In this document: piece by piece, positions 1-26,689 of the stretch
How the letters are laid out: the number at the start of each line of letters is the position of its first letter
How positions within the stretch are numbered: position 1 is the stretch's first letter
Assembly: GCA_002245135.1 (NCBI GenBank)
Contig: NGBS01001188.1
Location: 1-64,000, forward strand
Reading direction: 5' to 3'
DNA length: 64,000 bases
Source of the DNA: Proteromonas lacertae
Taxonomy: Eukaryota
Notes under the pieces: generated by a model
What the model saw: only the letters and a program-made list of their open reading frames with translations
Database searches by the model: none
Told to the model about the DNA's origin: nothing
Position numbers and translations under genes: made by a program

Positions 1-826
1 TGTAACAATGAAGAGTAATAGTTTAAGTGGAGGAACATTAAATATAGGTACAATCGAAAGTAGTGGTGGATCAAGTGATAAAATTAGTATATTGAGTAAT
101 GTGGATATGTCCAATCTAGTATTAAGTGCTGGAACAATCGAAGTTGTAACAATGAAGAGTAATAGTTTAAGTGGAGAACATTAAATATAGGTACAATCGA
201 AAGTAGTGGTGGATCAAGTGGTAAAATTGCGATAATGAATAACCTAGATATGAATGGTAAAAATGTAAATAATATAGGACAATTTGATTCAGAAGAACTA
301 TCTGGAAATACTTTAAGTATAAACAATATAAAAGTGTTAAGTGGTGGTTCAATAAAAATGTTGAGTAATGTGGATATGTCCAATCTAGTATTAAGTGCTG
401 GAACAATCGAAGTTGTAACAATGAAGAGTAATAGTTTAAGTGGAGGAACATTAAATATAGGTACAATCGAAAGTAGTGGTGGATCAAGTGATAAAATTAG
501 TATATTGAGTAATGTGGATATGTCCAATCTAGTATTAAGTGCTGGAACAATCGAAGTTTAACAATGAAGAGTAATAGTTTAAGTGGAGGAACATTAAATA
601 TAGGTACAATCGAAAGTAGTGGTGGATCAAGTGATAAAATTAGTATATTGAGTAATGTGGATATGTCCAATCTAGTATTAAGTGCTGGAACAATCGAAGT
701 TGTAACAATGAAGTAATAGTTTAAGTGGAGGAACATTAAATATAGGTACAATCGAAAGTAGTGGTGGATCAAGTGATAAAATTAGTATATTGAGTAATGT
801 GGATATGTCCAATCTAGTATTAAGTA
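1..826 (+). repeat. Coding tandem repeat, 144-nt unit, about 5 near-identical copies with one ~126-nt interruption
   Basis: tgtaacaatgaagagtaatagtttaagtgg recurs at 1, 145, 414, ~558 and 701; copies differ mostly by 1-2 nt deletions. Confidence 0.9.
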
Positions 827-1125
827 CTGGTACTCTTAATGTTGGTAATGTTAATGTTAATACAATTAGTGGAGGTTTTTTGAATGTTGATAATATTAGT
901 GTTGGTAGTATATCAATATGAATGTTAATGTTAATGAATTACTTTAAGCTTCCAATAATAGAACCTAGTTGTAATGAAAATGATGAAGGTGCAATATATT
1001 TTGATAAAAATAGTGGTGAAGTAAAGATATGTCACAATAAACAGTTTGTAGTATTAGCATTTACTCAACCAACCAATTCTCCTACTCCCACTACTAATCC
1101 AACTCCAACTAATATCAAACCATAG
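1..1125 (+). CDS. 3' part of a fibre-like repeat surface protein (family member 0); 5' end lies outside the window; several frameshifts
   Basis: Tandem 48-aa repeats (TMKSNSLSGGTLNIGTIESSGGSSDKISILSNVDMSNLVLSAGTIEVV). Segment NNLDMNGKNVNNI..LSGNTLSINNIKVLSGGS is homologous to gene A. Ends in cap FKLPIIEPSCNENDEGAIYFDKNSGEVKICHNKQF plus a Pro/Thr tail; stop TAG at 1123-1125. Confidence 0.75.
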
Positions 1126-1280
1126 TGTTTTAGTTTATATTTTAATATATGTCTTATTATTTTTATTATTTGATTTTTTGTTACAAAACTATTTAATGAA
1201 ATTTATCAAATATTTTACAAAATTATTTCTTTTTATTATGTTTGTTCTATTAATTTTAATAGAAAAACAGTATATTTTAA

Positions 1281-2175
1281 AATAAGATTGGTTGAAATTA
1301 TATAAATATCTATTCTGATTAATTAAAATTCATCTGCAAACTACTCAATAGTGATATTTAACATATTTATAAACAACTTGTTATTTTGATGATTAATTTA
1401 TATTGATTACTATCTCTAAAAAACAATTATAAATGATTTGTCTTCAATAAGTCTCTTACTTTCTCAGTTTCTGAAAATAAATAATTATTATAAACCTCTC
1501 TTCGAGTTATACTATATCCTAGTATGAATCAAAACCTTCTAAATTCTGGTGAGTCTAATATAGTGGTACTGACTGCATTGAAGGTTATGAATTTAAATAG
1601 ATCTTTGTTGACAGAATCTGAATTGACTTTGGCTTTTACAATATGCAATAATCTGAATATTTTATATTAAACATGTTTTTACAAAACATTTTGGAGTAGT
1701 TAAGATTTTTATGAAACATTTTATAATTGAATAAAATCACAACTCTTTTGATGCGGTAGGGGGTAATGTGATATCCCTATAGTTTCATATATTATAAAGT
1801 CTTATAAATATTGAGTAATTATACATTTAAATGATATAAATCTTAAAAAATAAAGATTAACTTAGTCAAACCATCAAGCTTGATGTTTTTTTCTTTTATT
1901 TTTTTATTCTATAATTAATTCATTATTATGCTAATAATATGTTATTGTGAGTCATCATTGAGAAATAGATCAAAATAATAGTAATATAAAAAGTGAATCA
2001 ACCGACTGTCAAATTTGATATTTGAAAGATGATGAATAAAGCTTATATTTTGTATTTGTGGTTAGATAATATGCTTGTTAACTCATGTTCAATAGGAGGT
2101 CAACTAATAGTTAGTATAAGGAAGGTAAAGGTCAAGCTAAAGATATAGGTTTTGACCTATATGTAAACCTATAAT
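1281..2175 (-). mobile_element. Degenerate, end-truncated inverted copy of the hAT-like element at 62657-63753
   Basis: 1281-2106 is the diverged reverse complement of ~62690-63553 (e.g. cttagtcaaaccatcaagcttgatgttttt vs aaaaacatcaagcttgatggtttgactaag). TATAGGTT/AACCTATA motifs at ~2144-2173. No CAG-type TIR or TSD found. Confidence 0.85.
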
Positions 2176-2303
2176 TAAATTTCAAAAATACTCATTTGAG
2201 TATTTATAAACTTCAGCTCTTTTAATATTCTAGTTTTCATTATATTATAAACTAACAAAGTAAATGATAAATCATTAGTTAATATAAACATATCAAGTGT
2301 AAA

Positions 2304-2995
2304 GTGGTGGTTCAATCAATGTATACAATGATATTGATATGTTCAATAAAAATATATATCGTGAATAGTGTGACATGTTCAACACTGAATATAGGAACAA
2401 TTCAAAGTTTAAGTGGTACAACTGGAACAGTGAAAGTGTATATTAATTTAGATATGATTGGTGAAAACATAGTAAATGTAGGTACATTCAGTGGTACAAA
2501 TGGGGCGAGTTTCACAATAATGATGAATAGCAATTTGAATTTATTAGGTAAAAGCATTAGAAATATAAATACTATCAGTAGTGGTATAGATAATGTAGAT
2601 AATTTCAGTAGTGGAACAATGAAAGTTGAAAGTTTTTTTAAATTACCAACAAAATCTCCTACATGCAATGCAACAAATATAGGAACTTTGTGGTATGATA
2701 GTACTAATGGTCAAATTAAATATGTAATGGATCAACATTTAATGTCGTTGCATTTATTGGTGATCAATCATTAAATTTAGGAAATACTGGAACAATAACT
2801 GCTGGTAGTATGACAGTTGGAACGTTGACTGTAATTAACACATTTTCAGCTCCAAATTTAGCTGTAACTGGTGTCTTTAAAATACCTACATCATCAGTTA
2901 CTTGTAATACAGCAAATATAGGTGCTATGTATTTATCTGGAAGTAGTATTGGTGTTTGTACTAGTTCAGGAATGAAATCTATTAATTTTTACTAG
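2304..2995 (+). pseudogene. 5'-truncated chimeric fragment of the fibre-like family carrying two C-terminal caps in tandem
   Basis: TLNIGTIQSLSGTTGTVKVYINLDMIGENIVNV repeat, then cap FFKLPTKSPTCNATNIGTLWYDSTNGQIK (frameshift ~2720). From 2759 it is an exact copy of the gene A 3' end. No N-terminal or TM exons upstream. Confidence 0.7.
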
Positions 2996-3913
2996 TATAT
3001 ATATAAATTATTGTAATTATTTTAAATCATATAATTAATTATTAATATTATCAAAATTATATACTTATGAGATTGTAACATAAAACAAAATACATCATAC
3101 TCTAAAGTAGTAACAATTAATTAAAAATGTTTAATTAATTGAGTTTAGAATGATAGGAACGAACCATCTATGCTTTTAAGCATTTACAACCACAACTACA
3201 GTCGTTGTCATTCTTTATGCAGTTTTTACAACAAACACAATCACACTTACAACTTCGATCTTTACAGTAACAGCATTCTTTTCCACATTTACATTTCGTA
3301 TGACTTTCACAACTCTTCTTACAACAACTACAATCACACTCACATTTCGTTCCACATTTACAGCTTTCACAACTACAACTCTTGTCTTTACCACAACTAC
3401 ATACACCGTTTTCTTTACATGATGGATTATCGCATTTACCAGACATTTTCGACGATTATTTAGCTTCAAATAAGAAACTTCACAAAACAAAAATTCTTGA
3501 AAATAATATTAACGAAGTAAGAATATTCTCATTATCTTATTATTCTCACAACAATACAATATATTACATTGACATTGTATATCTTAATATATCTACTTTA
3601 CTTTTCACTTTCTTTGAAATATTCACCATAAACTTTGATATTACATCCATCTATCTATTTCAATATCATAATCACATTGTATATCAATTTGATGCATATT
3701 ACAAACAAAGTGACAAAAGATCTCTCCAACTACTACTCTAATCAACTATATCATTTTATCATCACTTTCTTCACTTCAATCTATAATCATATTAACAACA
3801 AATCACTTCCATATTATATCTATATAACAAATAACAACTAAAAACATCAATTCAAAATAGATTAACATAAACACATATAATTCAAATAGATAAACGATCA
3901 TTTTATTTTGACT
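2759..3913 (+). repeat. Segmental duplication, copy 1 (copy 2 is 8919-10073)
   Basis: Constant offset of 6160 nt; only 4 substitutions seen (3501, 3635, 3865, 3872). Contains the gene A tail, a metallothionein gene and the intergenic promoter region. Confidence 0.95.
3168..3446 (-). CDS. Metallothionein (MT1), 92 aa
   Basis: 29 Cys in 92 aa in CxC, CC and CxCxCxCC clusters; Lys/Ser-rich; a single aromatic residue. Confidence 0.9.
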   Translation of the reverse strand: MSGKCDNPSCKENGVCSCGKDKSCSCESCKCGTKCECDCSCCKKSCESHTKCKCGKECCYCKDRSCKCDCVCCKNCIKNDNDCSCGCKCLKA

Positions 3914-3972
3914 AACTAACTTATAATATTTATTTTATCTTTATTTTTAGTTGTTAAAGTATAAAAACAAAT

Positions 3973-6900
3973 ATGAGAAACCAATCAAATAGAACTCCTG
4001 TTCGTTCTCTAGGTATATAACTTATCATTATTTCTAAGTAGAAACTAATACACCAATTAGGGTAATGCCTAGAACTCCAGTTCGTTTTGATTCAAACCCA
4101 CAATATTCTAGTAAAAGAATGCCTGCGCCACCTATAGGTAAACCACGAAACGCAGACTCACTGAAATTAGAGTTTTTGGATGTTCCATCTCCATCTACTA
4201 GCTGTAGATCAAGTACCGTTGTACCATGTCCTTTAGAATCTGTAAATCAGAATAATACTTGTGGTAGTACAGAAAAAAGTAAAATAATTGTTGCAAACAA
4301 AACTAAACATGAGAAAGTTCGATCTTTTATTATAATGTTATGTTTACAATGTATAAAATAATAATAATAATGTAATTTGATAGTATTAATTAGTGTTTTA
4401 ATTCTCACAGTTTATACAATTGTGTTAGTGATTGTATGTAAATCCTATATAAAGAATCATTACAAAATCGAAATGAATGGTGATGTATTGAGTTTAAATT
4501 CATTAGAAGTTGGTCATTTTAATGGAGTTTACTCATTAGAGAATTTAAGGAAAGAATTAAAGAATGAAATAAAAGAAGAAGTGAAGAAAACAACATTAAA
4601 CCTTCGAAATATGAATGAAAATGAAGATAAAATAAAATCAAGTATATATTTATATGTTTTATTAATAATAATAATATAGAAAATGAATTATTTACAAATG
4701 CAGTGATTGATGAAAAGTCAAATCTGTATTTAAAAACAAAAGGATTATTAAGTGATGAAATAGAAATCGAAAAGAACAGTAATTTCAATGGAAATGTGAA
4801 ATTTGGAAGTGTAGGTAATGAAGCTGCTGTAGAAATCAATGGTAAATTAGAAGTGAAGAATGTAAAAGTGAAAGAAAAGATCGATTTGAGTGAAGCACGA
4901 TTTGAATATAATATAAATGATAAAAATCAAAATAGTCATGAGAAAGTCGAAATTGGTGAATTATCTGTTCATTCTTTGAACTATGCAACTGAATTCTGTA
5001 ATATCACATTAAATGATGAAACAAATATAAACAATATTCTATTAAAAGACAATACAATAAGTTCAACAAAGAATGATTTATACTTAAATACAATAGATCC
5101 AAAATGTAAAGTGATAATGAGTTCAAGTGAAATAAATGGTAATTTGAAGAGTAATTCAATCAGTGTAGATAAAATCGTAATCAATAATAATGAGATAAAT
5201 GGAATATCTTCAATCGATAGTGATAAAATCAATGTAAAAGTATTGAGTAACAATAAGAACTTAAATGAAAATGAAAATATAATATCTATAATCAACAATG
5301 TTGATATGAGTAACAAAGATATAAATAATATAAAAGAAATAAAAGCTAATACTATAAATAGTATAAACCTTAAAAGTGAAAATGAAGATATAAAAGTATT
5401 AAATAATTTCGATATATCAAATAAAAATATAAAAAATATAAAAGAAATAGTTTCAGAGCAAGTGAATGTAAAAGAATTGATAAATACCGATTTATTAATG
5501 AACTATATAAAAGTGAAGAACGATTTAAGTTTAGAGAATAACAACATAAAGAATGTTGATAATGTCATATCTTCAAATATTGAAGTTGATACTATAAGTG
5601 GTAAAGAAGGAGTAAAACCTATTGAAATAATAAACGATATGAATATCAAAGACAATACATTGAGTAGTAAAGTTATTCAAAGTACAACAGTTGGTGTATT
5701 GAATTTGAAAAATTATAATGATGATAATAGAAAGATAAATCTATTAAGTGAAATGGATGTAAATCAAAATGATATAAAGAATCTGAAATTATTGAATGTA
5801 AATACAATAGAGTTAGGAGAAATGAAGAGTAAAGACAATAGTGATATGAGAATGTTAAATAATTTAGATTTATTACAGAATAATATAAACAATGTAGAAA
5901 TATTAAATGTGAATAAAATCTCAAGCAAATTAGAAAGTATTGAAATTGGAAAATCATTAGATTTAAAAGAATCATCATTAACTAGTAAAAGTATAAAGAG
6001 TGAAGAGTTAAAAGTCAATACAATCAGTGTGAATTCACCAACAGCAAATAGTTTTATATCAATAAAAGACAATGTAGATATGAGTGAGAAATCATTAAAA
6101 CTGGATGAATTAAATGTGAAAAGATTAAATGGAATAGATGACACTGAAATTACTCTCTTAAGTGATATAAAAAGTGATAAAAAGTTATCCATAAATACAG
6201 TCGCAGTTAATAATCTACAATCGAATGGTAATGGCGATCCAATAAAAGTAAATTCCAATATAGATATGAGTGATAAAGAAATAAGAAATGTGAAAAACAT
6301 AGAAAGTGAAAGTTCAACAATCAATACAATTTATACCAATGTATTTACACCCAAAAATGGAAATGAAATTATTGTAAATAATAATTTAAGAGTTAAAGGC
6401 AAATTAATATCTTTAGATACCTCCAATGTAGCTGAATTAGGCAATGTAAGTTCTATCGTTGGTCCTTCTACTATCAATATAAAATCCAACTTAGATATGA
6501 ATGGTAAAAGTATTAATAATATTGAAAGTATTTATGTGCATAATATATACCCAAGAAATGGTAATGGATTGAGTGTATTTCTATATGGAACAGTTTCTAT
6601 GAATTCCTATCCAATAACAAATGTAGGAACAATAGAAGTAGCTAATGTAAAAAGTAAAGGTGTAAATTATGTTAAATATTTGAATAATATAGACATGAAT
6701 GGGAAAGATTTATATAATTTAATGAAATTGAATGTTGGTACAGTTGGTGGTTATTCAGATGGAAGTTCAATATCAATAGTAAGTAATGTTAATATGAACA
6801 ATAAAAATATACAAAATATAAATGAAGCTACTTCCAGGAAAACTTAATATTGGAACAATCAAAGCTGTAAATACAGCAATCAATATGGTTTCTTTATTAA

Positions 6901-9155
6901 ATATGAATAATAATGATATTGATAATATAAAATCAATCAAAGGAAATGGAAATGTAATAGCAGTTAATAGTAATATTAATATGAAGAATTGGTTAATGTC
7001 TATAGGTACAATTAAAGTAAATAATGAAATGTCTGTACCAAAAATCAGTAGTAATGTTAATGGAGGTAGTATAATGATAATGAATCATCTAACATCTAAT
7101 AATAAGAATATCAATAATGTTAATATCCTGACAGCTAATCAGATTAGTCCATCAACAATAAAACTAAGTAGTGGAGATATTAATATTGGAAGTGATTTAG
7201 ATTTTCATAATGATTATAAAGTTAAGAATCTAAAAGGATTAGAAATTAATTCTATTGATGCTGATTCATTGACAGTAGGTACGTTATCAGTAAAGAATCA
7301 ATTGAATATTGAAAGCATTAAGAGTATGACAAGTGGAACAATAACTGTTAGTAGTAATTTAAATCTTGATAATAATAAGATAATATATAATGTAAAAGAT
7401 ATAAAAACAGAAGATATTCATGTAAATAATGTTTTATATGTAGATAAAGTGAATTCTAAAGACCAAACTGTGAATGGATTTGTATCTATAGTAAGAGACA
7501 TAAATATGAATAGTAAAGATATTAAATCAATTAATGCAATGAGTAGTGGCAAAATGAATATAGGCACACTTCAAAGTAGTATAGGGAATACTGGTACAAT
7601 AAAGATAGATAGTAATTTAGATCTGTTAGGACATAATTTTGAGAATATAAACGGGTTTAAATCTACTAGTTTATCTGGTAATACGTTGAGTGTAAATAAT
7701 ATAAAAGTATTAACAGGTGGATCAGTTAATATAAAGGATAATATTGATATGACAAACAAAAATATATATAGAATAAACGAATTAAGTTCAGGAATAATCA
7801 ATGTAAATACAATAAATAGTGGTAATGGTGTAAGTGAAATTGTAGTTTCAAATAATGTTAAGTTGATATCAAATACTATGACAGCTGGTACTCTTACAGT
7901 AATTAATTCTATCACTACTGGAACAATAACAATTGGAACAGCATATGTTAATACAATCACATCAACAAGTGGTGAAATATCTGTAACAAAACCATTGAAT
8001 ATGAAATTAAATGAAATTAAATCAGTTAGTAAAGTAACTGCAACAACTGCTTCAATTAGCTATTTAGACTCTGATATTTCTACAATTACTGTACAAAAAG
8101 CATTGGATTTAGGAGTATATTCAATTTCTACTACAGGAACAGTGAATGCTGGAACAATAAATTTAGGAAATAATGGAGAAGTAACTACAGGATCATTTAG
8201 TGCAACAACTGCATCAATTAATACATTAACATCTGGTTCTGGTGAAATTACTGTTATTAAACCATTGAATGTAGGAACTAATAAAATAACATCTACAGGA
8301 GAAATATCTGCTAATGTATTAACAGGTACAACAGCAACAATAACAACAGCAACAATAACAACTGCCAAGATTAGTACTTTATCATCAATTGCAACAGGAA
8401 ATTCAATAAATGTTAATTCACCATTGAGTTTAGGAACTAATGGAATTACTTCTACAGGAACTATTACTGCATCATCAGTCTCAGCTACAACTGCAACAAT
8501 TAATACACTAACAACAAATGCTGCTGAAATTACAGTTAGTAAACCATTAAATTTAGGAAGTTATAAACTAACTGCAAATAATTTCCAAGCAACGTCTGCA
8601 ACAATTACAGCAGGAACAATTACAACTGGTACAATTAATACACTAACATCTAGTGGTAGTGAAATTACTGTTATTAAGCCATTGAATGTAGGAACTAATA
8701 AAATAACATCTACAGGAGAAATATCTGCTAATGTATTAACAGGTACAACAGCAACAATAACAACAGCAACAATAACAACTGCCAAGATTAGTACTTTATC
8801 ATCAATTGCAACAGGAAATTCAATAAATGTTAATTCACCATTGAGTTTAGGAACTAATGGAATTACTTCTACAGGAACTATTACAGCTGGGAAGTTGGTA
8901 ATAGGAGGAACAACAGTAGGTGATCAATCATTAAATTTAGGAAATACTGGAACAATAACTGCTGGTAGTATGACAGTTGGAACGTTGACTGTAATTAACA
9001 CATTTTCAGCTCCAAATTTAGCTGTAACTGGTGTCTTTAAAATACCTACATCATCAGTTACTTGTAATACAGCAAATATAGGTGCTATGTATTTATCTGG
9101 AAGTAGTATTGGTGTTTGTACTAGTTCAGGAATGAAATCTATTAATTTTTACTAG
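3973..9155 (+). CDS. Type II membrane fibre-like repeat protein A (~1700 aa)
   Basis: ATG 3973; introns 4013-4041, 4351-4383 and 4642-4679 join exons in frame. Pro/Ser/Thr-rich N-tail, TM FIIMLCLQLLISVLILTVYTIVLVIVC, many NxD[ML]xxKxIxN[VI] repeats, Thr/Gly-rich region, cap FKIPTSSVTCNTANIGAMYLSGSSIGVC. One frameshift near 6835. Confidence 0.85.
8244..8884 (+). repeat. Intragenic direct repeat of ~224 nt (8244-8467 and 8661-8884)
   Basis: Offset 417 nt (139 codons); one synonymous mismatch seen; encodes EITVIKPLNVGTNKITSTGEIS...GITSTGTIT. Confidence 0.9.
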
Positions 9156-10073
9156 TATATATATAAATTATTGTAATTATTTTAAATCATATAATTAATT
9201 ATTAATATTATCAAAATTATATACTTATGAGATTGTAACATAAAACAAAATACATCATACTCTAAAGTAGTAACAATTAATTAAAAATGTTTAATTAATT
9301 GAGTTTAGAATGATAGGAACGAACCATCTATGCTTTTAAGCATTTACAACCACAACTACAGTCGTTGTCATTCTTTATGCAGTTTTTACAACAAACACAA
9401 TCACACTTACAACTTCGATCTTTACAGTAACAGCATTCTTTTCCACATTTACATTTCGTATGACTTTCACAACTCTTCTTACAACAACTACAATCACACT
9501 CACATTTCGTTCCACATTTACAGCTTTCACAACTACAACTCTTGTCTTTACCACAACTACATACACCGTTTTCTTTACATGATGGATTATCGCATTTACC
9601 AGACATTTTCGACGATTATTTAGCTTCAAATAAGAAACTTCACAAAACAAAAATTCTTGAGAATAATATTAACGAAGTAAGAATATTCTCATTATCTTAT
9701 TATTCTCACAACAATACAATATATTACATTGACATTGTATATCTTAATATATCTACTTTACTTTTCACTTTCTTTGAAATATTCACCATAAACTCTGATA
9801 TTACATCCATCTATCTATTTCAATATCATAATCACATTGTATATCAATTTGATGCATATTACAAACAAAGTGACAAAAGATCTCTCCAACTACTACTCTA
9901 ATCAACTATATCATTTTATCATCACTTTCTTCACTTCAATCTATAATCATATTAACAACAAATCACTTCCATATTATATCTATATAACAAATAACAACTA
10001 AAAACATCAATTCAAAATAGATTAGCATAAATACATATAATTCAAATAGATAAACGATCATTTTATTTTGACT
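8919..10073 (+). repeat. Segmental duplication, copy 2 (copy 1 is 2759-3913)
   Basis: Direct sequence match at offset 6160. Confidence 0.95.
9328..9606 (-). CDS. Metallothionein (MT2), identical protein to MT1
   Basis: Same 92-aa Cys-rich ORF, inside the duplication. Confidence 0.9.
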   Translation of the reverse strand: MSGKCDNPSCKENGVCSCGKDKSCSCESCKCGTKCECDCSCCKKSCESHTKCKCGKECCYCKDRSCKCDCVCCKNCIKNDNDCSCGCKCLKA

Positions 10074-10324
10074 TTAAAAATTGTTTTAATAAACTCATTA
10101 GCAGGATGTTTGGAGAATTAATAGTTTATTATTATAAATATAGGATTAAACTATTGGTATTGTTAAATATAAATTTAACATCAAATTATGAAATTTCAAA
10201 TAGAATAGCTTTAGTTGCATTATTAATGGAATTTATAACAAGAAAAAAGAAACATGTATATTGAAAGAGTATAAATTAATAATTGTTTATATATTAATTA
10301 GTAGATAATAATGAAGAGAATGGT

Positions 10325-10603
10325 TTAAGCTTTTAAACATTTACACCCACAGCTGCAATCGTTATCATTCTTTATACTGTTTTTGCAGCACAAACAATCG
10401 CATTTACAATTTCTATCTTTACAATAACAGCAATATCTACCACATTTACACTTTGTATTACTTGCACGACTTTTTTTACAACAGTCACACTTACATTCAC
10501 ATTTTGCATCACATTTGCAGTCATCACAACTACATGTCTTATCCTTATCACATGTACACACTCCGTTTTCTTTACATGATGGATTGTCGCATTTACCAGA
10601 CAT
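10325..10603 (-). CDS. Metallothionein (MT3), diverged paralog
   Basis: 92 aa; same MSGKCDNPSC start and NDNDCSCGCKCLKA end; many synonymous changes relative to MT1. Confidence 0.9.
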   Translation of the reverse strand: MSGKCDNPSCKENGVCTCDKDKTCSCDDCKCDAKCECKCDCCKKSRASNTKCKCGRYCCYCKDRNCKCDCLCCKNSIKNDNDCSCGCKCLKA

Positions 10604-10646
10604 TTTTGATGATTCTATTGATTAACAGAGAAGAATTGTTATAAAA

Positions 10647-10672
10647 TAAGAATATTCTTAATCTTCTCAGAA
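10647..10672. promoter_or_regulatory. Candidate stress/metal response element upstream of MT3
   Basis: 14-bp palindrome TAAGAATATTCTTA (nGAAnnTTCn) plus TTCTCAGAA; related motifs lie upstream of the other three MT genes. Confidence 0.45.
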
Positions 10673-11036
10673 CAATCTGGAATGTTATGTTAATATTGTC
10701 TTATGTATTTTGTCTTATTATATATTTCCATACATGCATGCAATTAAAAATGTGTAGTTATCTGTCCATTTTGATTTTTCAATGATTACTATATAATAAA
10801 ATGAACATGCCATATCACAAAACTATATATTTCTAATTGATAAAGTGGGATATTACATTTTTATTGTATGAGTGTATTTTATTAATTGGAATTTACTATA
10901 CTCTATAGATATAGTAATGTAGGTTATAGTTATGTTATTATATAACAATCAATCTAACAATCAAACACAAAACATCATACATCGAGACAATGGTTATTAA
11001 TTAATACACTTAATTAACTGATAAGGATATTATCAT

Positions 11037-11318
11037 TTATGCTTTACAGCATACACAACCACAACTACAATCGTTATCATTCTCTATAGCTGTTTTACAG
11101 CAGATGCAATCACAAACACAACTTCGATCTTCACAATAGCAGCTCTCCTTTCCGCACTTACATTTAGTATGACTGTTAAGACTCTTTTCACAGCATTTAC
11201 AATCACATGCGCACTTTACATCACATTTGCATTTTTCACAACTAGAATCTACGCCTTTTACTCCACAATTACATACACCCTTCTCTTTGCATGAAGAATT
11301 ATCACATTTTCCTGACAT
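11037..11318 (-). CDS. Metallothionein (MT4), 93 aa
   Basis: Start placed at MSGKCDNSSC by homology with the paralogs; Cys pattern largely conserved. Confidence 0.9.
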   Translation of the reverse strand: MSGKCDNSSCKEKGVCNCGVKGVDSSCEKCKCDVKCACDCKCCEKSLNSHTKCKCGKESCYCEDRSCVCDCICCKTAIENDNDCSCGCVCCKA

Positions 11319-11717
11319 TTTTATCGGTAGATTTTGAAGAAATAGCAAAAGTTGATAAAAAGAGTTTTTGAGAAGAAAACAGAATAAAAAAGAACAAATA
11401 TATTCTCTTAATTATTCTCAGAAGGATAAAAAATATTACAGTTCTATACTCCATCTTATAATTTTTAGTTTAGTTAAACAATTAAACACAGATTCTCACT
11501 ATTCCACGAACCAATCTACTTCTGTACATTCATTCCATAAATGTATATTTACTGATTAAATAATGGGTCAGTTTTTTCATATGAATGATTACTTTTTAAA
11601 TTCTTTCAATAATTCCACGTTAACTTCACATGAGTTAGAATTATAATATTTAACGTAAGAACAACCATAAATTATACCCATAGCACATCTATATAATAAA
11701 CATCCAAAATATCTCTT

Positions 11718-11778
11718 GTCAAAATAGATTAGAATATGTGTTATTTACTAAAAATATATTCATAAATTCTATTTTGAC
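11718..11778. promoter_or_regulatory. Inverted motif pair GTCAAAATAGA...TCTATTTTGAC upstream of fibre-like gene B (also before A and C)
   Basis: Perfect 11-bp inverted repeat here; CAAAATAGATT/AATCTATTTTG at 15935-15991; TCAAAATAGA/TTTATTTTGA at 3852-3911. Confidence 0.55.
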
Positions 11779-11834
11779 TCAAGTGTCAGTTATATTGTTT
11801 TTTCTTTATAATTTCATCTATCTAACATAATATT

Positions 11835-14800
11835 ATGAAATCGTTTTATAAAAATAATCCTTCTGTCTCTTCCCTAAGTATGTTAGTTATTATTATATTG
11901 TAGCTCCAAAAACTCCAAATAGAATAGTAGTGAGGCAACCTGTACATTTTGAATCAGCACGATTTGATTCTGCAAGAAAAATCCCAATTCGTCAACCAAC
12001 TGCTCCACGAAACGCAGACTCACTGAAATTAGAGTTTTTGGATGTTCCATCTCCATCTACTAGCTGTAGATCAAGTACCGTTGTACCATGTCCTTTAGAA
12101 TCTGTAAATCAGAATAATACTTGTGGTAGTACAGAAAAAAGTAAAATAATTGTTGCAAACAAAACTAAACATGAGAAAGTTCGATCTTTTATTATAATGC
12201 TTATGTTTACAATGTATAAAATAATAATAATAATGTAATTTGATAGTATTAATTAGTGTTTTAATTCTCGCAGTTTATACAATTGTGTTAGTGGTTGTAT
12301 GTAAATCCTATATAAAGAATCATTACAAAATCGAAATGAATGGTGATGTATTGAGTTTAAATTCATTAGAAGTTGGTCATTTTAATGGAGTTTACTCATT
12401 AGAGAATTTAAGGAAAGAATTAAAGAATGAAATAAAAGAAGAAGTGAAGAAAACAACATTAAACCTTCGAAATATGAATGAAAATGAAGTATAAAATAAA
12501 ATCAAGTATATATTTATATGTTTTATTAATAATAATAATATAGAAAATGAATTATTTACAAATGCAGTGATTGATGAAAAATCAAATTTATATTTAAAAA
12601 CAAAAGGATTATTAAGTGATGAAATAGAAATCGAAAAGAACAGTAATTTCAATGGAAATGTGAAATTTGGAAGTGTAGGTAATGAAGCTGCTGTAGAAAT
12701 CAATGGTAAATTAGAAGTGAAGAATGTAAAAGTGAAAGAAAAGATCGATTTGAGTGAAGCTACGATTTGAATATAATATAAATGATAAAAATCAAAATAG
12801 TCATGAGAAAGTCGAAATTGGTGAATTATCTGTTCATTCTTTGAACTATGCAACTGAATTCTGTAATATCACATTAAATGATGAAACAAATATAAACAAT
12901 ATTCTATTAAAAGGCAATACAATAAGTTCAACAAAGAATGATTTATACTTAAATACAATAGATCCAAAATGTAAAGTGATAATGAGTTCAAGTGAAATAA
13001 ATGGTAATTTGAAGAGTAATTCAATCAGTGTAGATAAAATCGTAATTAATAATAATGAGATGAATGGAATATCTTCAATCGATAGTGATAAAATCAATGT
13101 AAAAGTATTGAGTAACAATAAGAACTTAAATGAAAATGAAAATATAATATCTATAATCAACAATGTTGATATGAGTAACAAAGATATAAATAATATAAAA
13201 GAAATAAAAGCTACCTCATTAAACAGTGTTTATTTAAAAGTGAAAATGAAGATATAAAAGTATTAAATAATTTCGATATATCAAATAAAAATATAAAAAA
13301 TATAAAAGAAATAGTTTCAGAGCAAGTGAATGTAAAATGAATTAATCAATACAAATGGATTGATAAATGTGAAGAACGATTTAAGTTTAGTAGAATAACA
13401 ACATAAAGATGTTGATAATGTCATATCTTCAGAAATATCGAAGTTGATACTATAAGTGGTAAAGAAGGAGTAATACAAACCTATTGAAATAATAAACGAT
13501 ATGAATATCAAAGATCAATACTCTGAGTAGTAAAGTTATTCTAAGTACAACAGTTGGTGTATTGAATTTGAAAAATTATAATGATGATAATAGAAAGATA
13601 AATCTATTAAGTGAAATGGATGTAAATCAAAATGATATAAAGAATCTGAAATTATTGAATGTAAATACAATAGAGTTAGGAGAAATGAAGAGTAAAGACA
13701 ATAGTGATATGAGAATGTTAAATAATTTAGATTTATTACAGAATAATATAAACAATGTAGAAATATTAAATGTGAATAAAATATCGAGTATTTTACAGAA
13801 AATCACAGTTGAAAAAGAATTAGATTTAAAAGACTCTTTAACCACCAGTAAAAGTTTAATAAGTAAAGAGTTAAAAGTCAATACAATCAGTGTAAACTCA
13901 CCAACAGCAAATAGTTTTATATCAATAAAAGACAATATAGATATGAGTGAGAAATCATTAAAACTGAATGAATTAAATGTGACTAGAATAAATGGTATAA
14001 ATGGAAAAGAAATAACTGTTTTAAGTGATATAAAAAGTGATAAAAAGTTATCCATAAATACAGTCGCAGTTAATAATCTACAATCGAATGGTAATGGCGA
14101 TCCAATAAAAGTAACTTCCAATATTGATATGACTAATAAAGACATTAAGAATGTAATAAATATTCAAAGTGAAACTTCAACAATTACCAAAATTAGTACC
14201 AATACAATAGAACCAAAAAGTGGCACTGATGTTGAAGTAAAAGGTAATTTATTAGTAAGAGGACATCAAATCCAACTTGGAACAGCAACTATTGACTCTT
14301 TATCTGATCTAAGGTCAATAGCTGGATATGAAGGTAATTTATTAGTTGAATCAGATTTAGATATGAATGGAAAGAATATAAAGAATGTATTAAATCTAAA
14401 TGTTGGTAAAATTGGTGTATATCCTGCAAGTAGTAAAATATCAGTTGTTAATGATATTTTAATGAATAGTAAAGATATTGGAAATATAAAAGAAATGACT
14501 GCTGGAATATTGAATATTGGAACAATCAAAGTGGTTGGTCCTGGTTCAATCAATATGATTTCTTCAATAAATATGAATAACAATGATATAGTAGATATAA
14601 AATCACTTAAAGGAAAAGCCAATACATTAACAGTAGAATCTGATATAAAAGTAAGTGATGCTTATAAATTAACTGCAAATACAATCAATGTAAAGACGAA
14701 TAGGAAGTATCCTATCATCTCCATTAACTATTGATAACAATGTAGAGATAACTAAAACATTAAAAGTTAATGATATTACTTTTCGTACAGGAAATACTGT

Positions 14801-15823
14801 AAAAATAGATAGCATTTTGGATTTAAATAATCACGAGTTAGCTAATGTTGGTTCATTTTCATTATCGAAAATAAATATTGCTGAAATTGAAAGTAAAGTT
14901 CTAGGTAGTGCTATTAAAGTATCATCGAATTTAGATTTTCAAGGAACAAAGAATATAGAAAAACTGAATGAAGTAACAGCTAATACAGTGAATGTAAAAA
15001 CAAGTTTAAAATTGATGAAAATAGAATCATCAGATAATTCAAATAAAGTGATTAATGTTTATGGTGTTTTAAACTGTCAAAATAACGATGTAAAGAATAT
15101 AAATATATTAGAAACAACTACATTGAAAGTAAATACACTTCAATCTAAATCTTCATCACCAGTGAATGTCAATAATAATTTGGATTTAGGAAGTAATGAT
15201 ATTAATAATGTGAAAAGTTTATATGTAGATGCATTATATTCAAAATCAAATAATCTTATTACAATCAATCATGATATTCAATTCGTTTCAGGTAAAGGAA
15301 TAACTTCCTTACCAAAGTTAGTAGTTAGTGAAATAGCGAATAATGGAAATAATGTAAATGTTAAAGATGATATTAATATGAATAGTAAAGATATTAAACA
15401 GTGAATCAATTATCAGCTGCTTCTATTATTTTATCTCAAAGTATTCAAGTTCCAACTATTACTAATGGAGCTAGCGCTGTAGTGTTTAATAGTAAAGTAA
15501 ATATGAATAGTAATAGTATAGAAGGAGTTAATACTCTAACAACTACTAATGTAGAATGTAATCAAATGAAGGTAACAAATATTGCAACTACTGACCCTTC
15601 TATTTTATTTTCAAATGATTTGAATTTAGACAATAGCAGGAATATAGTAAATGCCAATAAAATTAATGCAAATGAAATCTCAGCAACAACAATGAAACCG
15701 TCTAAATTGGTTATTCCAGCATGTAATTCGGCTGAGAATAATGTTTTATGTTTTGATGGTGGTAGATTAGTTTATTATAATGGTTCTACAAAAATGTACA
15801 TTTCTACTAGTACAATTCCTTAA
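11835..15823 (+). CDS. Type II membrane fibre-like repeat protein B; multiple frameshifts (assembly errors or pseudogene)
   Basis: ATG 11835; intron 11878-11903 in frame. ~12004-13780 is nearly identical to 4143-5918 of gene A; unique first exon and distal half; cap KLVIPACNSAENNVLCFDGGRLVYYNGS. Indels near 12200, 12490, 12760, 13240-13560, 14700 and 15400. Confidence 0.75.
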
Positions 15824-16057
15824 ATATCTTAAAATGTATAAATTACATATAGTCTATTTAATTTATTATATTTTTTTACTATTGCTTGTTGTTTTAAATG
15901 TTTTTAAAAAGAAAATATTTGAAACGGTAAAAATCAAAATAGATTTTATCACTTTAATATAAATACCTATTTTTCTTTGAAATCTATTTTGGAAGTCGGT
16001 TATTTTTTCTTTTTCATCTTGTTAATTAATTAGTTAAAATCTGTTAATATAATAAAC

Positions 16058-18553
16058 ATGGATTCTCGTAATTGTGATACACCTAAAAGGTTTTCGAGTA
16101 TTTTATATAGAATATTATAAAATATAGATAATAGCCCTTCCGTTAGTTGCAAAGCTAGATCTGGGTATGGTTTACAAACTATTAAAGTAAGTCCTGCTCC
16201 AACAAATTCTCAACCTCCAATTGTTATGATTACCCCAAAGAAGGATGATGTAGATTTTCTTGATGTTGAAACACCTCGTAAAGCTAGTAATGCTAATGCT
16301 TCAACTAATATATTTTACTATAACGATAAAGGAATAGGAACTGAAGATAATACAAAGAAGCCATTTGACAAGGAAAAGTTCAAGAAATTTTGTTGTATAG
16401 GATGGTTAATATGTATATAATAGATATATTGCTATATTCTCAATAGTTTTTTTAATAATCGTAATATTAGTAATCTACACATTTATACTCTATGCCATAG
16501 CTACAGCATTCTTAAGATCTAACTACAAAATATCAATCGATGGAAATGTACTTCATTTAAACTCATTAGATGTTGAAAGGTATTATAGCAACTATATTGA
16601 TGCAACTCAACATCAACAAACCAGCAGAATATTAGAAACAACAGGAAATGAATCAAAAACAAAGAATATTAGAGAAGAGAAAAAATCAAATTTCAATCCA
16701 AAGCTTGTCAAATCTTCAAATCGTCAGCATAATAGACTTATTATTGATAATGACAATGAATTGCATTTAAAAACAAAAAGTATAGAAAGCCAAAATGCAT
16801 ATGTGGATGGTAATACTGAATTTTTTGGAGATGTAAAATTCGGTAATTCAACAAAACCAGTAAATGTAGCAATCGATAATGGAGATTTGAAAGTAAAGAG
16901 TTTAAAAGTAACTGATACAATTAATTTAGAAAAAGCAAAATTTGTATGGGATGCTGAAGATCAATTTACAGGTGAACAATATAAGAATGTAAAATTAGGT
17001 GAAATGAGTATAAAAACGTTGAATATAGAGAGTAAAGTATGTAGTGTAGATGCAAGTAGTGTTACAAAGATTAACGGTGTATTATTTACATCTCCAAATA
17101 AGATATCAAGTGATGGTGATTTAACAATTGAACCAAGTGATGTTAATACTAAAAGAGTGATTATTAACGGAGAAACAGAAATGCAAACTATCAGTTTAGG
17201 AGCTGTTACTGATGGTGGAAAGATTTACGTTGGATTAAAAGATAGAACATTTTATGATAGGGATTCATCAATTATGAAATTATATATAAACGAAAATAAA
17301 CAATCAGTTGTTGATACTTATGCTGTTGATGTTCAAAGTACAATTAAAACTTTATCAATATATACTGATACTATTGGAGTTAGAACAACTACAGCTACTC
17401 CTGAAAATGATATAATTAAAGTATTGAATTCTATAAATGCAGATGGTCAAACAATATTTTCAAAAACTATAGATGCAAATAATGTAAGAATGAATAGTAT
17501 TGAATGTCGAGAAGCTGATAGAAATAATGATGGTATAAGATGTAAAGATAGTGTCATGTTGAGTGTTAATGAAATTGTTAATATGAATGATTACAGTATA
17601 AGAAATGTTAATGAATTACATGTAAAATCAATTGTTAGTAGTTCTACTTCAATAGCTTTGAAGAATGACTTGGATTTAGGTAATAAAAATATAAATAATG
17701 TAAAGACTATTACTGTTGAAAAAATCCAATCAACAGGAGATGATATTAATATTCTTAGCAATATTAAGGCTGATGGTAAAACAATGACAGCTAAATCAAT
17801 TGAATTAACTGATTCTATTTCAACACCGAAAATAGAAACAACTGCTATTTCTATAACAATTAAAAATGATTTAGATCTTGGAGGTAATAGTATAAAATCA
17901 GCAAATGAAATTACTTCAACAACATTGTCAGTTAATTCATTATTGACAAATAATATTTCAGGAAAAGTCCCAGCCAATCCAATTAATGTTAAGAACGATT
18001 TAAATCTTGGAGTTAATAGTATTACAGCCAAATCAATTATTTTGACTGATTTAAAAACTTTAGAAATATCAGGAAATGGTGGTGATGTTAAAGTTAAGAG
18101 CAATTTAGATCTTCAAAATAAAAATATTGTAAATACAGGTGAAATAAAAGCATCAAAAATGTCAATTACTGGAGTTACTACTACAAATACATTATCTGCA
18201 ACTACATCTATATCTACACCAAAAATTGATACAGTTGCTGACAAAAATTACTGTTGGAAAAACATTAGATCTTGGTGTAAACGATTTAGAAACAGCAGGT
18301 GAAGTAAAAGCTAATATTTTATCTGCATCTACATGCAATAACATCAGATTATACACCAGCAACATAACTGTTACGGTAAAGCAGTAGTTAATAGTATTGT
18401 TGTGGTAGATTCAATTAAAACTTCCATGTAGTATCATCTGTAGCTTGCTACAACTGCGCAGGATAAGAGAATACAATATTTTATTCTGGTAAATGAAATG
18501 TATATATGTATTGGAATATGCGCTAAAAATAGTAAATCAGAAATTCCCCTTAA
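16058..18553 (+). CDS. Type II membrane fibre-like repeat protein C (divergent paralog); 3' end frame-disrupted
   Basis: ATG 16058; introns 16098-16127 and 16413-16446 at the same positions and phase as in gene A. TM WLIFFLIIVILVIYTFILYAIATAFL, then NYKISIDGNVLHLNSLDVE (A: HYKIEMNGDVLSLNSLEVG); KNDLDLGNKNINNV repeats. Cap recognisable only through indels after ~18240, so the end is approximate. Confidence 0.75.
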
Positions 18554-18651
18554 ATTTGATTTATATAATTATATAATTTTTTATATTAATTTTTTTATTT
18601 ATGTATTTATTTTACAAAACAAAATATAAAATATATATAATTATCTCCATC

Positions 18652-20831
18652 TTATATTGGACAACTCATTCTTCTCTTTTCATTCCTCTTCACACTTCTA
18701 TTCATCAACAAATTCTCATTAAACAATCCATTATTCATAATCAAAGGATTATTATTTACTCCATCTGATGATGTATATTGTCTAAAACTCTGAAATCCTT
18801 TTACAGATTTCATATTATTAATTCCATAGTATTGATGAATAGAATCACTTATTATAATATCACTCATTTCATTAGATTCACCTTCTTCATCATTCCTATT
18901 CTCTTTCTCTTTCATTTTCTTCTCACATTCATCTTTATTCTTCAACAAATTATCCATTAAAAACGATAAACAAGTAAAAAATGAAGTGATTGGCATTAAA
19001 AATGGTTCAACAACAAATTTAATGAAATCTAAATTCATCTTTTCACTTGGAATGTTATTATTTCTATCACAAAGTGGAGTTACACTCTTTCCATTATTTC
19101 TCAATATATCTCCTTGAATATACATTTCTTTTTGTAATAAAGATGACCACATTGATGATATATCATTTGGTTTATAATTATTATTAATATCAGCACTCTT
19201 TATTATATAACACATCAATAAATCAACATCATTTTCATTATACTTTATATTACTTAAATTACAGTGGTTATTGAGATTGATAGGTGAATCAGAATTACTA
19301 ATTGGTAATTTTGATGGAGTATTAGAGAGAGATGGAGATAGTGTATTACTGTTGTTGTTAGTATTATTATTATCAAAAAAATCAGGAGATAATATCTTCA
19401 AAGTAAAGTTTTCCACAAATTCATTATGTTTTCCCATATCAGTCGCTAATATTAACTTTTGAACTTTTCTTATTACATATTCTTGATCATCTAATGTCAA
19501 TCCACTAATGATAGATGAAGAAATTGAAGATGATGGAGTTTGAGGAGTTTGAGGAGTTTGAGGTGTAGTTACTGCAGTTGTAGTTGGTGATGATGATATA
19601 TCAGTGTTTATTGTATCATCTTCATAATTATTAATAAGTAAATCAGTAGCAATATGAGCGTGCATCATTTCCAACGTTGGATGGTTTTTGTATAAGATTG
19701 CAATAGGATGAGAAAGTTCTATATAATAATAAAAATAATAATAATCCATACCAACTAATGTTGAATTATTCAATCCAAAATGTCCAACATCATGACAAAT
19801 AGCTGCTACAAATAATGAGAATAAATCAATGTAACTTATATATTTCAATAAGTTCATTTGTTTATGTATAATATAAAGAAAGTGGACTACATCAAATCCA
19901 TGTATAAAACTATGATACGGTGTGGTTGTATATCGATTATATACTTTTATAATGAAGCTTTTCATTGTATTATGTCGAATAAAGAATTTTTCTAAAAATC
20001 CTAAATTTTCAAAGATGTATAATATATCTTCGATTAAATCAGTTATATTATATAACCATGGATTGAAATAGATAGAACTTAATACTTTTTCCCATCTAAA
20101 GTGGAGATTATTGTTAATTTTACTCTTTTTAGTGTCTGCACTAATAGCTATTGGTTTTATTACATTAATTTCTGTTTGAAGAGGTGCAAATGGCTGTTGG
20201 TGGGTTTATGCTATCATTGATTCTATCGAATTTCTTATAAATTGCTTCATTAGAAGGAATTTTTGGCTTATTATCATTTGACATACATGCTGAAAATATA
20301 ATAGAGTTATTATTCATAGTATTAACCGGTGATATTGTATCTATACGCTTTTCGTGTAAAATCTTTGTTTTATCATCGTATGTTGTATTATCTAAACTAT
20401 TTTCACCTAAATCCTCTTCTTCATCAGAATCTACATAGTCTTCATCAATATATCCATCTAAATGCAAGTCATTTAAACCAACTCCAGTTGCAGGCAATAA
20501 TTGGTTAAATCTTCCAGTGTCTATATATTTATATCAATGAAATAAATACATGGAGACCTTGTAGATATATCAGTGACCAGGCTTGACGATCTTGAGCGTA
20601 ATGAGGCTACTGGACATGCTGGAAGTAAGGGTGAAGTGAAATCTGCACAAATTTTCTCTGTAAAGTTGTTAAGAGCATAGTACTTTAAGCACACAGAATT
20701 TCTATGACCATTTCTATTTTTTTATAATTTTTAGTTCATATACTTGTCCTTATTGAGGTAAGCGTATTTATTAAGGTGACATCTAGTGAAATAGATCACT
20801 ATACAGAAAAATACTCGATAAAAGACGACAT
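18652..20831 (-). CDS. Class I 3',5'-cyclic nucleotide phosphodiesterase
   Basis: PYHSFIHGFDV, HDVGHFG, EMMH, ATDMGKH, KSADIN and QGD motifs. Introns 20783-20814, 20714-20743, 20521-20549 and 19719-19751; one frameshift near 20190. Confidence 0.93.
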
Positions 20832-26072: not shown

Positions 26073-26658
26073 TTAAGCTGAAACAGCTTCAGTCATATTT
26101 ATATTATTATTTTTTATATTATCATTGTATATTATACTATCAGTATTATTGTCATTATCATTATCAAGTGGTCCATCACCATCTATTACAGGTTTTGGAT
26201 CTAATGAAGGTAAAGGTTCATTTCCTGAAGCAGATGGAGCTTTAGGAATGCTCTTTTTATTGGATTTGTTTGTGCTATTATTATCATTATCTTCAAGATC
26301 AATATCCACATCACCAAGTTCATCATCATCATCATCATCATCATCTAAATTTTCATGGTTTTCACCATCTTCTAAATTGTATAATTCATTATCATCATTA
26401 TCTTCATCACTCAATTGTACTTCTTCTTCTTCTTCATTGTTATTATCATTGTTATTATCATTATCATCACTTAATTCATTAGTATTAGTTGATTCTACTG
26501 GTTCAGGTTTAGTAGTCTCCTTCTTTTTAATTGCTTTCTTTGCTACTTTCTTTACTTCATTTGGCTTGCTCTTTGGTGCTGGCATTTCATCATCATCCTG
26601 TTGTTGTTGTTGTTGTTGATTTTCTTCTTCTTCTTCTGGTTGTGGTTCAACTAATCTT

Positions 26659-26689
<31 letters not shown>

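What the first reader, a model, noticed from the sequence alone, without database searches (positions are those of the whole stretch)
1..18553. Array of membrane-anchored fibre-like proteins (phage tail fibre/adhesin-like repeats) with variable caps
Seen: at least four paralogs plus a fragment. The three complete ones have a Pro/Ser/Thr-rich N-tail, one TM with a conserved intron in it, hundreds to ~1500 aa of NxD[ML]xxKxIxN[VI] beta-type repeats, and a C-terminal cap with pattern [FL]K[LI]P..C...G..[YF]..G...C that differs in every gene. Knowledge: similar LDMxxxKIxNV repeats and C..N.G.I.Y..G..C modules occur in phage tail fibres and bacterial trimeric adhesin-like proteins. Inference: a possibly laterally acquired, now intron-bearing family of trimeric surface fibrils with variable tips, a candidate protist surface-coat or adhesion system I cannot assign to a described family.
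Basis: partly seen in the sequence, partly recalled or inferred. Interest (0 to 1): 0.85.

Follow-up and report, generated by a model that had tools for sequence, protein, structure and literature searches.

The report
Virus-style surface fibres of a protist
An AT-rich single-celled eukaryote carries a tandem cluster of intron-split genes for long membrane-anchored proteins whose repeats match proteins encoded beside virophage capsid genes; they likely form three-chain fibres on the cell surface, and I found no description of the family.

Summary
The cluster is real: three whole genes (B about 1,690 aa, C about 1,300, D about 810), one gene cut by the window edge, and one fragment. B, C and D share two intron positions, a short N-tail, one membrane helix, a conserved proximal region, irregular beta repeats and a cap of about 45 aa. 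All carry frame breaks; the assembly shows errors elsewhere, so most are probably artefacts. The C-terminal parts avoid N-glycosylation sites (7 seen, 86 expected), while anchor-less relatives with the same repeat do not; this points to passage through the ER. Close relatives exist only in unnamed contigs. The repeat also matches anchor-less proteins encoded near Sputnik-type capsid genes (2 of 14 loci), plus one membrane-anchored Paulinella protein. The cap weakly resembles the collagen XV/XVIII trimerisation domain and the ends of phage spikes, so it more likely assembles the trimer than binds a ligand. The trimer itself was not modelled, no fold match is significant, and neither expression nor a donor is shown. 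This scan noted similar protist fibres on other DNA (two notes, unchecked). Verdict: an undescribed family, analogous to sarcoglycans and MAT fibres.

The parts
1..1125 (+). Gene A, 3' part only (cut by the window edge): near-identical repeats of about 143 nt, cap at about 940-1062, then a short Pro/Thr tail; several frame breaks
   Evidence: (families D2, D3)
1277..2107 (.). Dispersed repeat, 87.6% identical to an inverted copy at 62690-63557; no ORF over 77 aa; probably a decayed mobile element; lies just upstream of fragment F
2240..2995 (+). Fragment F: a few repeats, its own cap (about 2634-2757), then a copy of gene B's last repeats and cap (2759-2995); no start or membrane helix found upstream
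2759..3913 (+). 1,155-nt block 99.65% identical to 8919-10073 (B cap, 3' flank and one metallothionein-like gene): recent unequal crossover or mis-assembly
3973..9155 (+). Gene B, about 1,690 codons. Predicted exons 3973-4012, 4042-4350, 4384-4641, 4680-9155; membrane helix at about aa 110-135; one frame break near 6830-6845; Thr-rich distal repeats; cap at about 9033-9152
11835..15823 (+). Gene C, about 1,300 codons. Predicted exons 11835-11877, 11904-12213, 12247-12505, 12544-15823; 5' half 94% identical to B, distal half its own; at least 12 frame breaks; divergent cap at about 15704-15820
16058..18553 (+). Gene D, about 810 codons. Predicted exons 16058-16097, 16128-16412, 16447-about 18553; open to 18302, frame breaks in the last 300 nt; 56-59% identical to P0001-P0005
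3168..3446 (-). Metallothionein-like ORF, 92 aa with 29 Cys (label from composition and recall; a longer reading frame over the 11037-11318 paralogue had no Pfam match); same protein as 9328-9606
9328..9606 (-). Metallothionein-like ORF, 92 aa, 29 Cys
10325..10603 (-). Metallothionein-like ORF, 92 aa, 27 Cys
11037..11318 (-). Metallothionein-like ORF, 93 aa, 26 Cys

Best explanation
These are intron-split host genes for single-pass membrane proteins with a short N-tail and a long repeat region that likely passes through the ER to the cell surface, where three chains are predicted to wind into a beta-stranded fibre whose assembly would start at the small C-terminal cap. Shown: gene layout, one hydrophobic helix, repeats, cap, avoidance of glycosylation sites, conservation in related organisms. 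Inferred: type II topology; trimer; cap as a trimerisation module of the collagen XV/XVIII or phage-spike-end type; fibres of roughly 25-100 nm depending on the gene; a role as fibrillar surface coat or adhesin for bacteria, host mucus or other cells. The proximal region is conserved and the distal shaft is exchanged or diversified between paralogues, which would vary the exposed surface. The repeat module probably shares ancestry with virus fibre proteins; direction and donor are open.
For: One KD19 peak of about 3.0 after a 96-103 aa tail, none in the distal 777 aa of B. N-x-S/T sites: 7 seen in 2,958 aa of in-frame ectodomain against 85.7 by shuffling, with 81 reversed sites and D-x-S/T at 31 against 31.2 expected. 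Five non-secretory-looking ORFs of the window are not depleted. Twenty-six anchor-less repeat relatives are not depleted either (583 sites against 635 reversed; my sum rows), whereas the anchored Paulinella protein has 0 against 9. Relatives at 26-59% identity keep the whole layout in one open frame. Monomer model of B's last 163 aa: mean pLDDT 67.8, pTM 0.30, no intrachain sheet in the repeats, cap at 81-89, as expected (own knowledge) for one strand of an intertwined oligomer. The P0001 model matches collagen XV/XVIII trimerisation domains over 27-28 columns (3n3f_B prob 0.98, rmsd 1.1 A; 9bnb, 3hsh prob 0.96; E 1.8-2.6), which I take to be the cap. For the B model, 10 of 27 VIA rows are, by entry title, trimerisation domains, spikes, tail fibres, tailspikes or spike-like proteins, all at Z 2.1-3.1. 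The cap profile's one near-full-length PDB match is the C-terminus of a phage protein, 7chu_A 479-516 of 519, E 1.9. A repeat model built from the window alone scores 13 ORFs on 12 of 14 fetched loci; 2 of the 14 carry a Sputnik-type major capsid gene above Pfam's cut-off. Among 10 close relatives, 8 columns vary in aa 1-400 and 31 in aa 401-572.
Against: No fold match is significant: none at E<=0.001 in PDB or the viral library, and best Z 3.1 for the B model, below the tool's own noise level. The full-length P0001 model is poor (pLDDT 44.8) and folds its distal repeats as a single-chain beta-helix. Foldseek did not list the collagen domain for B's own cap among the rows shown, where small protease inhibitors ranked as high. 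No cap matched a Pfam trimerisation family. One extracellular-looking EGF ORF of the window is not sequon-depleted (10 against 9.3), so the test is not universal, and it cannot tell the cell surface from an organelle lumen. All window copies are frame-broken as assembled. The distant hits were first picked with a profile that included window sequence, so their later scores are not independent; shuffles and reversals control only for composition.
Confidence: 0.55

Rival explanations
1. Each chain folds on its own into a parallel beta-helix rod (autotransporter, tapirin or tailspike type), as a monomer or as three side-by-side helices held by the cap.
For: The P0001 monomer model aligns residues about 457-664 to single-chain beta-helices: tapirin 6n2b Z 13.8, rmsd 2.7 A, 170 aligned; 4om9 Z 13.5, rmsd 2.4 A.
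Against: Left-handed LpxD-type helices score as high (Z 15.3, rmsd 12 A), so the model's hand is not defined; mean pLDDT is 44.8. The second model shows no intrachain sheet. Repeat spacing is irregular, 18-84 aa between anchors.
Confidence: 0.2
2. The cap is a variable ligand-binding tip under diversifying selection, as in Bdellovibrio MAT fibres, and the array is a repertoire of specificities.
For: The four window caps compared are only 13-34% identical to one another. Variation among close relatives rises towards the tip, 13 of the last 45 columns. B and C share a base and differ distally, like the exchanged MAT C-termini (PMC10769870 section 12).
Against: The cap is only about 45 aa, keeps one pattern across the family and resembles trimerisation modules. 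The distal shaft diverges as much as the cap (D against P0001: 47-58 differences per 100 aa from residue 201). The two roles are not exclusive.
Confidence: 0.15
3. The fibres are structural parts of an internal or stage-specific structure (Golgi or vesicle lumen, cyst wall, hair or extrusome precursor), not a standing surface coat.
For: Sequon avoidance shows only lumenal passage. The host lineage is not established.
Against: Lengths of 570-1,690 aa, paralogue expansion and tip-biased variation fit an exposed protein better (inference).
Confidence: 0.08
4. The array is decaying debris of an integrated virophage or Polinton-like virus with no host function.
For: Many frame breaks, a truncated copy beside a mobile-like repeat, and virus-encoded relatives.
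Against: Shared spliceosomal introns, a membrane anchor, sequon avoidance, open-framed relatives at 26-59% identity, and no viral family among the 23 window ORFs scanned. An essential gene (acetyl-CoA carboxylase) also has an in-frame stop where an 85% identical relative has Gln.
Confidence: 0.02

Closest known systems
Beta-, gamma- and delta-sarcoglycan (animal dystrophin-glycoprotein complex)
   Same: Type II single-pass proteins whose extracellular C-termini of repeating beta strands form a triple-stranded beta-helix resembling phage tail fibres; a phage or bacterial origin has been suggested (PMC13478489, passages; PMC12750041, passages).
   Different: No Pfam or PDB sequence match. These proteins are 570-1,690 aa against about 300 (recalled), have irregular repeats and vary distally; partners are unknown.
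Fibre-like proteins of virophages and Polinton-like viruses
   Same: Same repeat: in L001 the repeat gene lies between a Sputnik-like minor capsid gene (3j26_N, E 4.7e-20) and major capsid gene (3j26_A, E 1.7e-45). PLV fibres are described as homotrimers on the penton (PMC12220804, passages).
   Different: The viral proteins have no N-terminal membrane helix, keep their glycosylation sites, and lack this cap and proximal region. Their role as fibres is inferred from position, not tested.
Bdellovibrio MAT (mosaic adhesive trimer) fibres
   Same: Paralogue family with a conserved base, beta-helical shaft and exchanged C-termini, displayed on the cell (PMC10769870, abstract and sections 10 and 12).
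   Different: Bacterial, with a signal peptide, an S74 chaperone or large beta-sandwich tips. Here: eukaryotic, introns, internal membrane anchor, 45-aa cap, no S74 match.
Collagen XV/XVIII trimerisation domain
   Same: Small C-terminal beta module; weak structural match.
   Different: No Gly-X-Y region; no sequence match; the cap has a Cys pair in most members.
Paulinella micropora g59894.t1 (P0027, EukProt)
   Same: N-tail, hydrophobic helix, related repeat, no glycosylation sites (0 against 9 reversed).
   Different: No match to the proximal region or the cap profile; itself uncharacterised; possibly a separate capture.

Membership tests
Sarcoglycan (beta/gamma/delta) | Type II single-pass topology with short N-tail | tested here: met
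   One hydrophobic helix after about 100 aa; C-terminal sequon avoidance; topology predicted, not measured
Sarcoglycan (beta/gamma/delta) | Sequence homology to the sarcoglycan family | tested here: not met
   No sarcoglycan family in Pfam scans of window ORFs (E<=0.1) or of 5 relatives (E<=10); no PDB sequence hit with profiles A1 and A2
Sarcoglycan (beta/gamma/delta) | Intertwined triple-stranded beta-helix | tested here: inconclusive
   Only monomer models, which disagree
Sarcoglycan (beta/gamma/delta) | Heterotrimer bound to alpha-sarcoglycan and dystroglycan | not testable with these tools
   No whole genome held
Virophage/PLV virion fibre | Shared fibre repeat | tested here: met
   Window-only repeat model scores the L001 protein 18.4 bits (best of 20 shuffles 4.3) and P0025 90.8 bits (3.9); 13 ORFs on 12 of 14 loci
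Virophage/PLV virion fibre | Encoded in a viral genome beside capsid and packaging genes, no membrane anchor | tested here: not met
   Window genes have introns and a membrane helix; no viral family among 23 window ORFs scanned; not every ORF of the window was scanned
Bdellovibrio MAT | Signal peptide followed by a conserved beta domain of about 130 aa | tested here: not met
   Anchor lies after about 100 aa of polar tail; no PDB sequence match to MAT entries
Bdellovibrio MAT | S74 chaperone or beta-sandwich tip | tested here: not met
   No Peptidase_S74 match; cap is about 45 aa
Trimeric autotransporter adhesin (YadA type) | YadA head/stalk domains and C-terminal membrane beta-barrel (definition recalled) | tested here: not met
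   No YadA family in Pfam scans; the anchor is an N-terminal helix
Collagen XV/XVIII-type trimerisation module | Small beta fold at the C-terminus | tested here: inconclusive
   Prob 0.96-0.98, rmsd 1.1-1.3 A over 27-28 columns but E 1.8-2.6; Z 2.6-2.7, rmsd 2.7-3.5 A, 38-42 aligned
Collagen XV/XVIII-type trimerisation module | Drives trimer formation | not testable with these tools
   Needs a trimer model or a bench test

The most novel reading that the evidence does not exclude
A protist lineage captured the virion fibre of a virophage or Polinton-like virus, fused it to a membrane anchor, purged it of glycosylation sites so that it folds in the ER, and expanded it into a recombining repertoire of surface fibrils; the Paulinella protein and perhaps animal sarcoglycans would be parallel captures, making virus-fibre domestication a recurring source of eukaryotic cell coats.
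Probability: 0.25. Interest if true: 0.85.

Novelty: new variant of a known kind. Interest (0 to 1): 0.62.

Why it matters
Sarcoglycans are the one eukaryotic case of a membrane-anchored triple beta-helix that I found in print, and their suggested viral or bacterial origin rests on shape. This family has a similar layout and a detectable sequence link to proteins of virophage-like viruses, so virus-to-host capture can be tested. If the host is of the Blastocystis kind (not proven), it also offers named candidate proteins for a surface coat described as loose fibrils associated with bacteria and poorly studied (PMC6115916, passages). The contrast in glycosylation sites between anchored and anchor-less relatives is a cheap marker for finding more domesticated fibres.

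Tried and rejected
Sequencing runs: none was listed for 9500-19400, which says nothing on expression. No whole genome is held, so family size is unknown. Pfam gave no real match for the fibre ORFs; PHROGs only weak rows (phrog_3269 tail protein E 0.012, phrog_8516 E 0.01-0.05). tblastn of P0001 and of window:13505-14731 against 50,697 phage records found nothing at E<=1. The ESM Atlas gave a best score of 0.83, a lead only. Sarcoglycan chains were not among the rows shown by any fold search, which does not exclude them. PDB hits of the cap profile to beta-propellers and TcdA repeats cover 9-19 residues and were rejected. Six of seven scans of viral contigs found no locus (one search found one). 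Rfam: no match in the window. Host lineage: CPSF100 and ACC searches gave close hits only in unnamed contigs (82% and 46%; 85%), no named close relative among the best 120 shown of each, and the ACC tree (36 rows picked by me from 120 listed: the window, the first 19 hits, and 16 named ones further down) puts the window with three unnamed rows and has no starred link to a named group. Literature searches that found no description of such a family: 0 papers; 1, a classification review; 0; 4, one relevant, on sarcoglycan; listings only, nothing relevant seen. Most subscription journals are not searched, and no supplements were read. I considered introns as the cause of the frame breaks: candidates exist at the B junction (55 nt) and the last C junction (32 nt), but they would remove repeat-like coding sequence, and none exists at the C1/C2 junction.
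Full report
Host. The window is eukaryotic and AT-rich (21-32% GC per kb). It encodes CPSF100-like, RCC1, TBC, phosphodiesterase and acetyl-CoA carboxylase domains and a very large gene with He_PIG, PA14 and EGF domains. The introns predicted in the fibre genes are 26-38 nt and start GTAT. This fits the AT-rich, short-intron end of the Blastocystis/Proteromonas group as described in PMC12129017 (parts 2-4 of 9 read) and PMC5608401 (passages), but it is not proven: CPSF100 and ACC have close relatives only in unnamed contigs, and the ACC tree gives no supported link to a named group. I treat the host as an unplaced protist.

Anatomy. Three whole genes lie head to tail on the + strand: B (3973-9155, about 1,690 codons), C (11835-15823, about 1,300) and D (16058-about 18553, about 810). 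Each has a phase-1 intron after codon 13 or 14 and a phase-1 intron inside the membrane helix; B and C have a third. After the helix comes a conserved proximal region of about 250 aa, then repeats with the consensus GGTINVKSNLDMNNNNIKNVKSIKSNTINVNTI (35 non-redundant of 39 units) at irregular spacing of 18-84 aa, then a cap of about 45 aa. A loose repeat motif matches 17 times on the + strand, all in the first 18.6 kb. Gene A is cut by the window edge. Fragment F has its own cap followed by a 99.65% copy of B's end, 3' flank and a metallothionein-like gene. B and C are 94% identical over 2.3 kb from the N-tail on and diverge beyond. This is the pattern of tandem duplication with exchange of distal parts, although the F duplication may be a mis-assembly.

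Frame breaks. B has one, D at least two near its end, C at least twelve. Against B, C has 10 frame-breaking indels and 25 substitutions over 1.5 kb, and 8 of the 10 are extra bases (my count). ACC has an in-frame TAA where an 85% identical relative has Gln, and 3 of 4 junctions in the large 46-60 kb gene have no intron candidate. Relatives of D are open from the helix to the cap. I put about 65% on most breaks being sequence errors; C, A and F could also be decaying copies.

Topology. The C-terminal parts are 11-18% Asn and rich in Ser and Thr, yet hold 7 N-x-S/T sites in 2,958 aa, against 85.7 by shuffling; the reversed site occurs 81 times and D-x-S/T at the expected rate. Four relatives show the same depletion (2-5 against 13-18). 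Five non-secretory-looking ORFs do not; three He_PIG ORFs do; one EGF ORF does not. The key control is that 26 anchor-less relatives with the same repeat keep their sites (583 against 635 reversed, my sum over; I left out 4 pieces of the family itself and 4 proteins with an N-terminal hydrophobic peak above 1.8). So the avoidance is not a by-product of the repeat. The simplest reading is that the long C-terminal part enters the ER lumen and that glycans on it are harmful, as they would be on a tightly wound beta rod (inference).

Relatives. A word-based search with D found 7 proteins among 7,995 candidates scored, all from unnamed Logan contigs, at 26-59% identity with the same layout. A full HMMER scan of 1.84 billion representatives gave 37 hits at E<=0.001: 3 full-length members, 3 whose best stretch is in the proximal region, and 31 whose best stretch is in the repeats. 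Of the 34 non-full-length hits, 27 have no Pfam family; weak rows include Gp53-like tail-fibre C-terminus and Peptidase_S74, both below cut-off. One hit is a named eukaryotic protein, Paulinella micropora g59894.t1, with an N-tail, a hydrophobic helix and no glycosylation sites. Context was found for two groups of the anchor-less hits. In L001 the repeat gene lies between Sputnik-like minor and major capsid genes. Of 14 loci, 12 carry repeat-positive ORFs; L001 and L014 have a Sputnik major capsid gene above Pfam's cut-off, L012 an A32 packaging ATPase and L009 a D5 helicase above cut-off, L004 both below cut-off (17 ORFs scanned of 157 extracted). Other hits look like phage-tail or archaeal proteins by my reading, untested. 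The repeat is therefore a widespread fibre-type motif. It links the family to virophage- and Polinton-like viruses but does not identify a donor, and I built no tree of repeats.

Fold. The full-length model of P0001 (56% identical to D) is poor, pLDDT 44.8, better only in the helix and the last 200 aa. Its distal repeats collapse into a single-chain beta-helix that matches right- and left-handed helices equally. The model of B's last 163 aa is better (67.8) and leaves the repeats extended with no intrachain sheet, pTM 0.30. The cap is the best-predicted part in both. Foldseek matches the P0001 model to collagen XV and XVIII trimerisation domains over 27-28 columns (prob 0.96-0.98, E 1.8-2.6). 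VIA lists the same domains, ends and parts of phage spikes and fibres, and a P2 central spike for the repeats, all at Z 2.1-3.1 and mixed with SH2 domains and other unrelated rows. Each of these is below significance. Together they lean towards a trimer with a C-terminal assembly module. A trimer model could not be run.

Variation. Among 10 close relatives, 8 columns vary in aa 1-400 and 31 in aa 401-572, 13 of them in the last 45; P0006 against P0007 differ at 13-15 per 100 aa up to residue 500 and 25-34 beyond. The exposed end changes fastest, but shaft and cap change together.

Mechanism (committed, 0.55). The helix inserts the protein with the N-tail in the cytosol (predicted). The fibre is displayed on the surface; at 0.38 A per residue, as in the Bd2133 tip (142 A for 370 aa), B would reach about 60 nm and D about 26 nm, and up to about 100 nm for a pure triple beta-helix (own estimate). 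Paralogues of different length and distal sequence would form a fibrillar coat that binds bacteria, mucus or other cells (inferred, least certain).

Comparison. It works like sarcoglycan in layout (PMC13478489 and PMC12750041, passages) and like Bdellovibrio MAT fibres in family structure (PMC10769870, abstract and sections 10 and 12), but fails the sequence tests for both. It shares its repeat with proteins of virophage-like viruses, whose fibres are described as homotrimers (PMC12220804, passages), but it is a host gene. My searches found no description of this family. Two earlier notes of this scan describe similar protist fibres on other DNA, and one gave me the sarcoglycan lead; I did not check their sequences.

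Verdict. A real, undescribed family; a new variant of a known kind. Surface or lumenal routing is well supported, the trimeric fibre is probable, the cap's role and the viral origin are open. Interest 0.62.

Noticed in passing
window 3168-3446, 9328-9606, 10325-10603, 11037-11318 (- strand): Four intronless metallothionein-like ORFs (92-93 aa, 26-29 Cys) interleaved with the fibre genes; two encode the same protein. No Pfam match for the one reading frame scanned.
   Followed up: partly
window about 45,900-60,300 (+): A very large gene, or run of genes, with He_PIG, PA14/GLEYA and teneurin-like EGF domains; three of its ORFs also strongly avoid N-glycosylation sites (0, 1 and 4 seen against 8.5, 12.4 and 19.3 expected). 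A second candidate surface protein of several thousand residues.
   Followed up: partly
window 1277-2107 and 62690-63557: Inverted dispersed repeat, 87.6% identical, with similar short TATAGGTT-type motifs near its ends; probably a non-autonomous transposon.
   Followed up: partly
window 61749-61751: In-frame TAA in acetyl-CoA carboxylase where an 85% identical relative has Gln; read as a base error, although a single case cannot exclude a recoded stop.
   Followed up: partly
P0027 (Paulinella micropora g59894.t1): Membrane-anchored protein with near-perfect tandem copies of a related repeat and no N-glycosylation sites; a possible independent capture in Rhizaria.
   Followed up: partly
L004 (17.3 kb), L009, L012: Polinton-like virus-type contigs (A32-like ATPase and/or D5-like helicase) whose presumed capsid ORFs had no Pfam match, and for L004 no PDB sequence match; each has a 900-1,200 aa repeat protein.
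   Followed up: partly
window 18652-20533 (-): A cyclic-nucleotide phosphodiesterase gene lies directly downstream of gene D on the opposite strand (Pfam PDEase_I, E 3.5e-46).
   Followed up: no
window 26073-28349 (-): 758-aa ORF with recurring ECTFxPxIN-like motifs and an acidic tail; no Pfam match.
   Followed up: no
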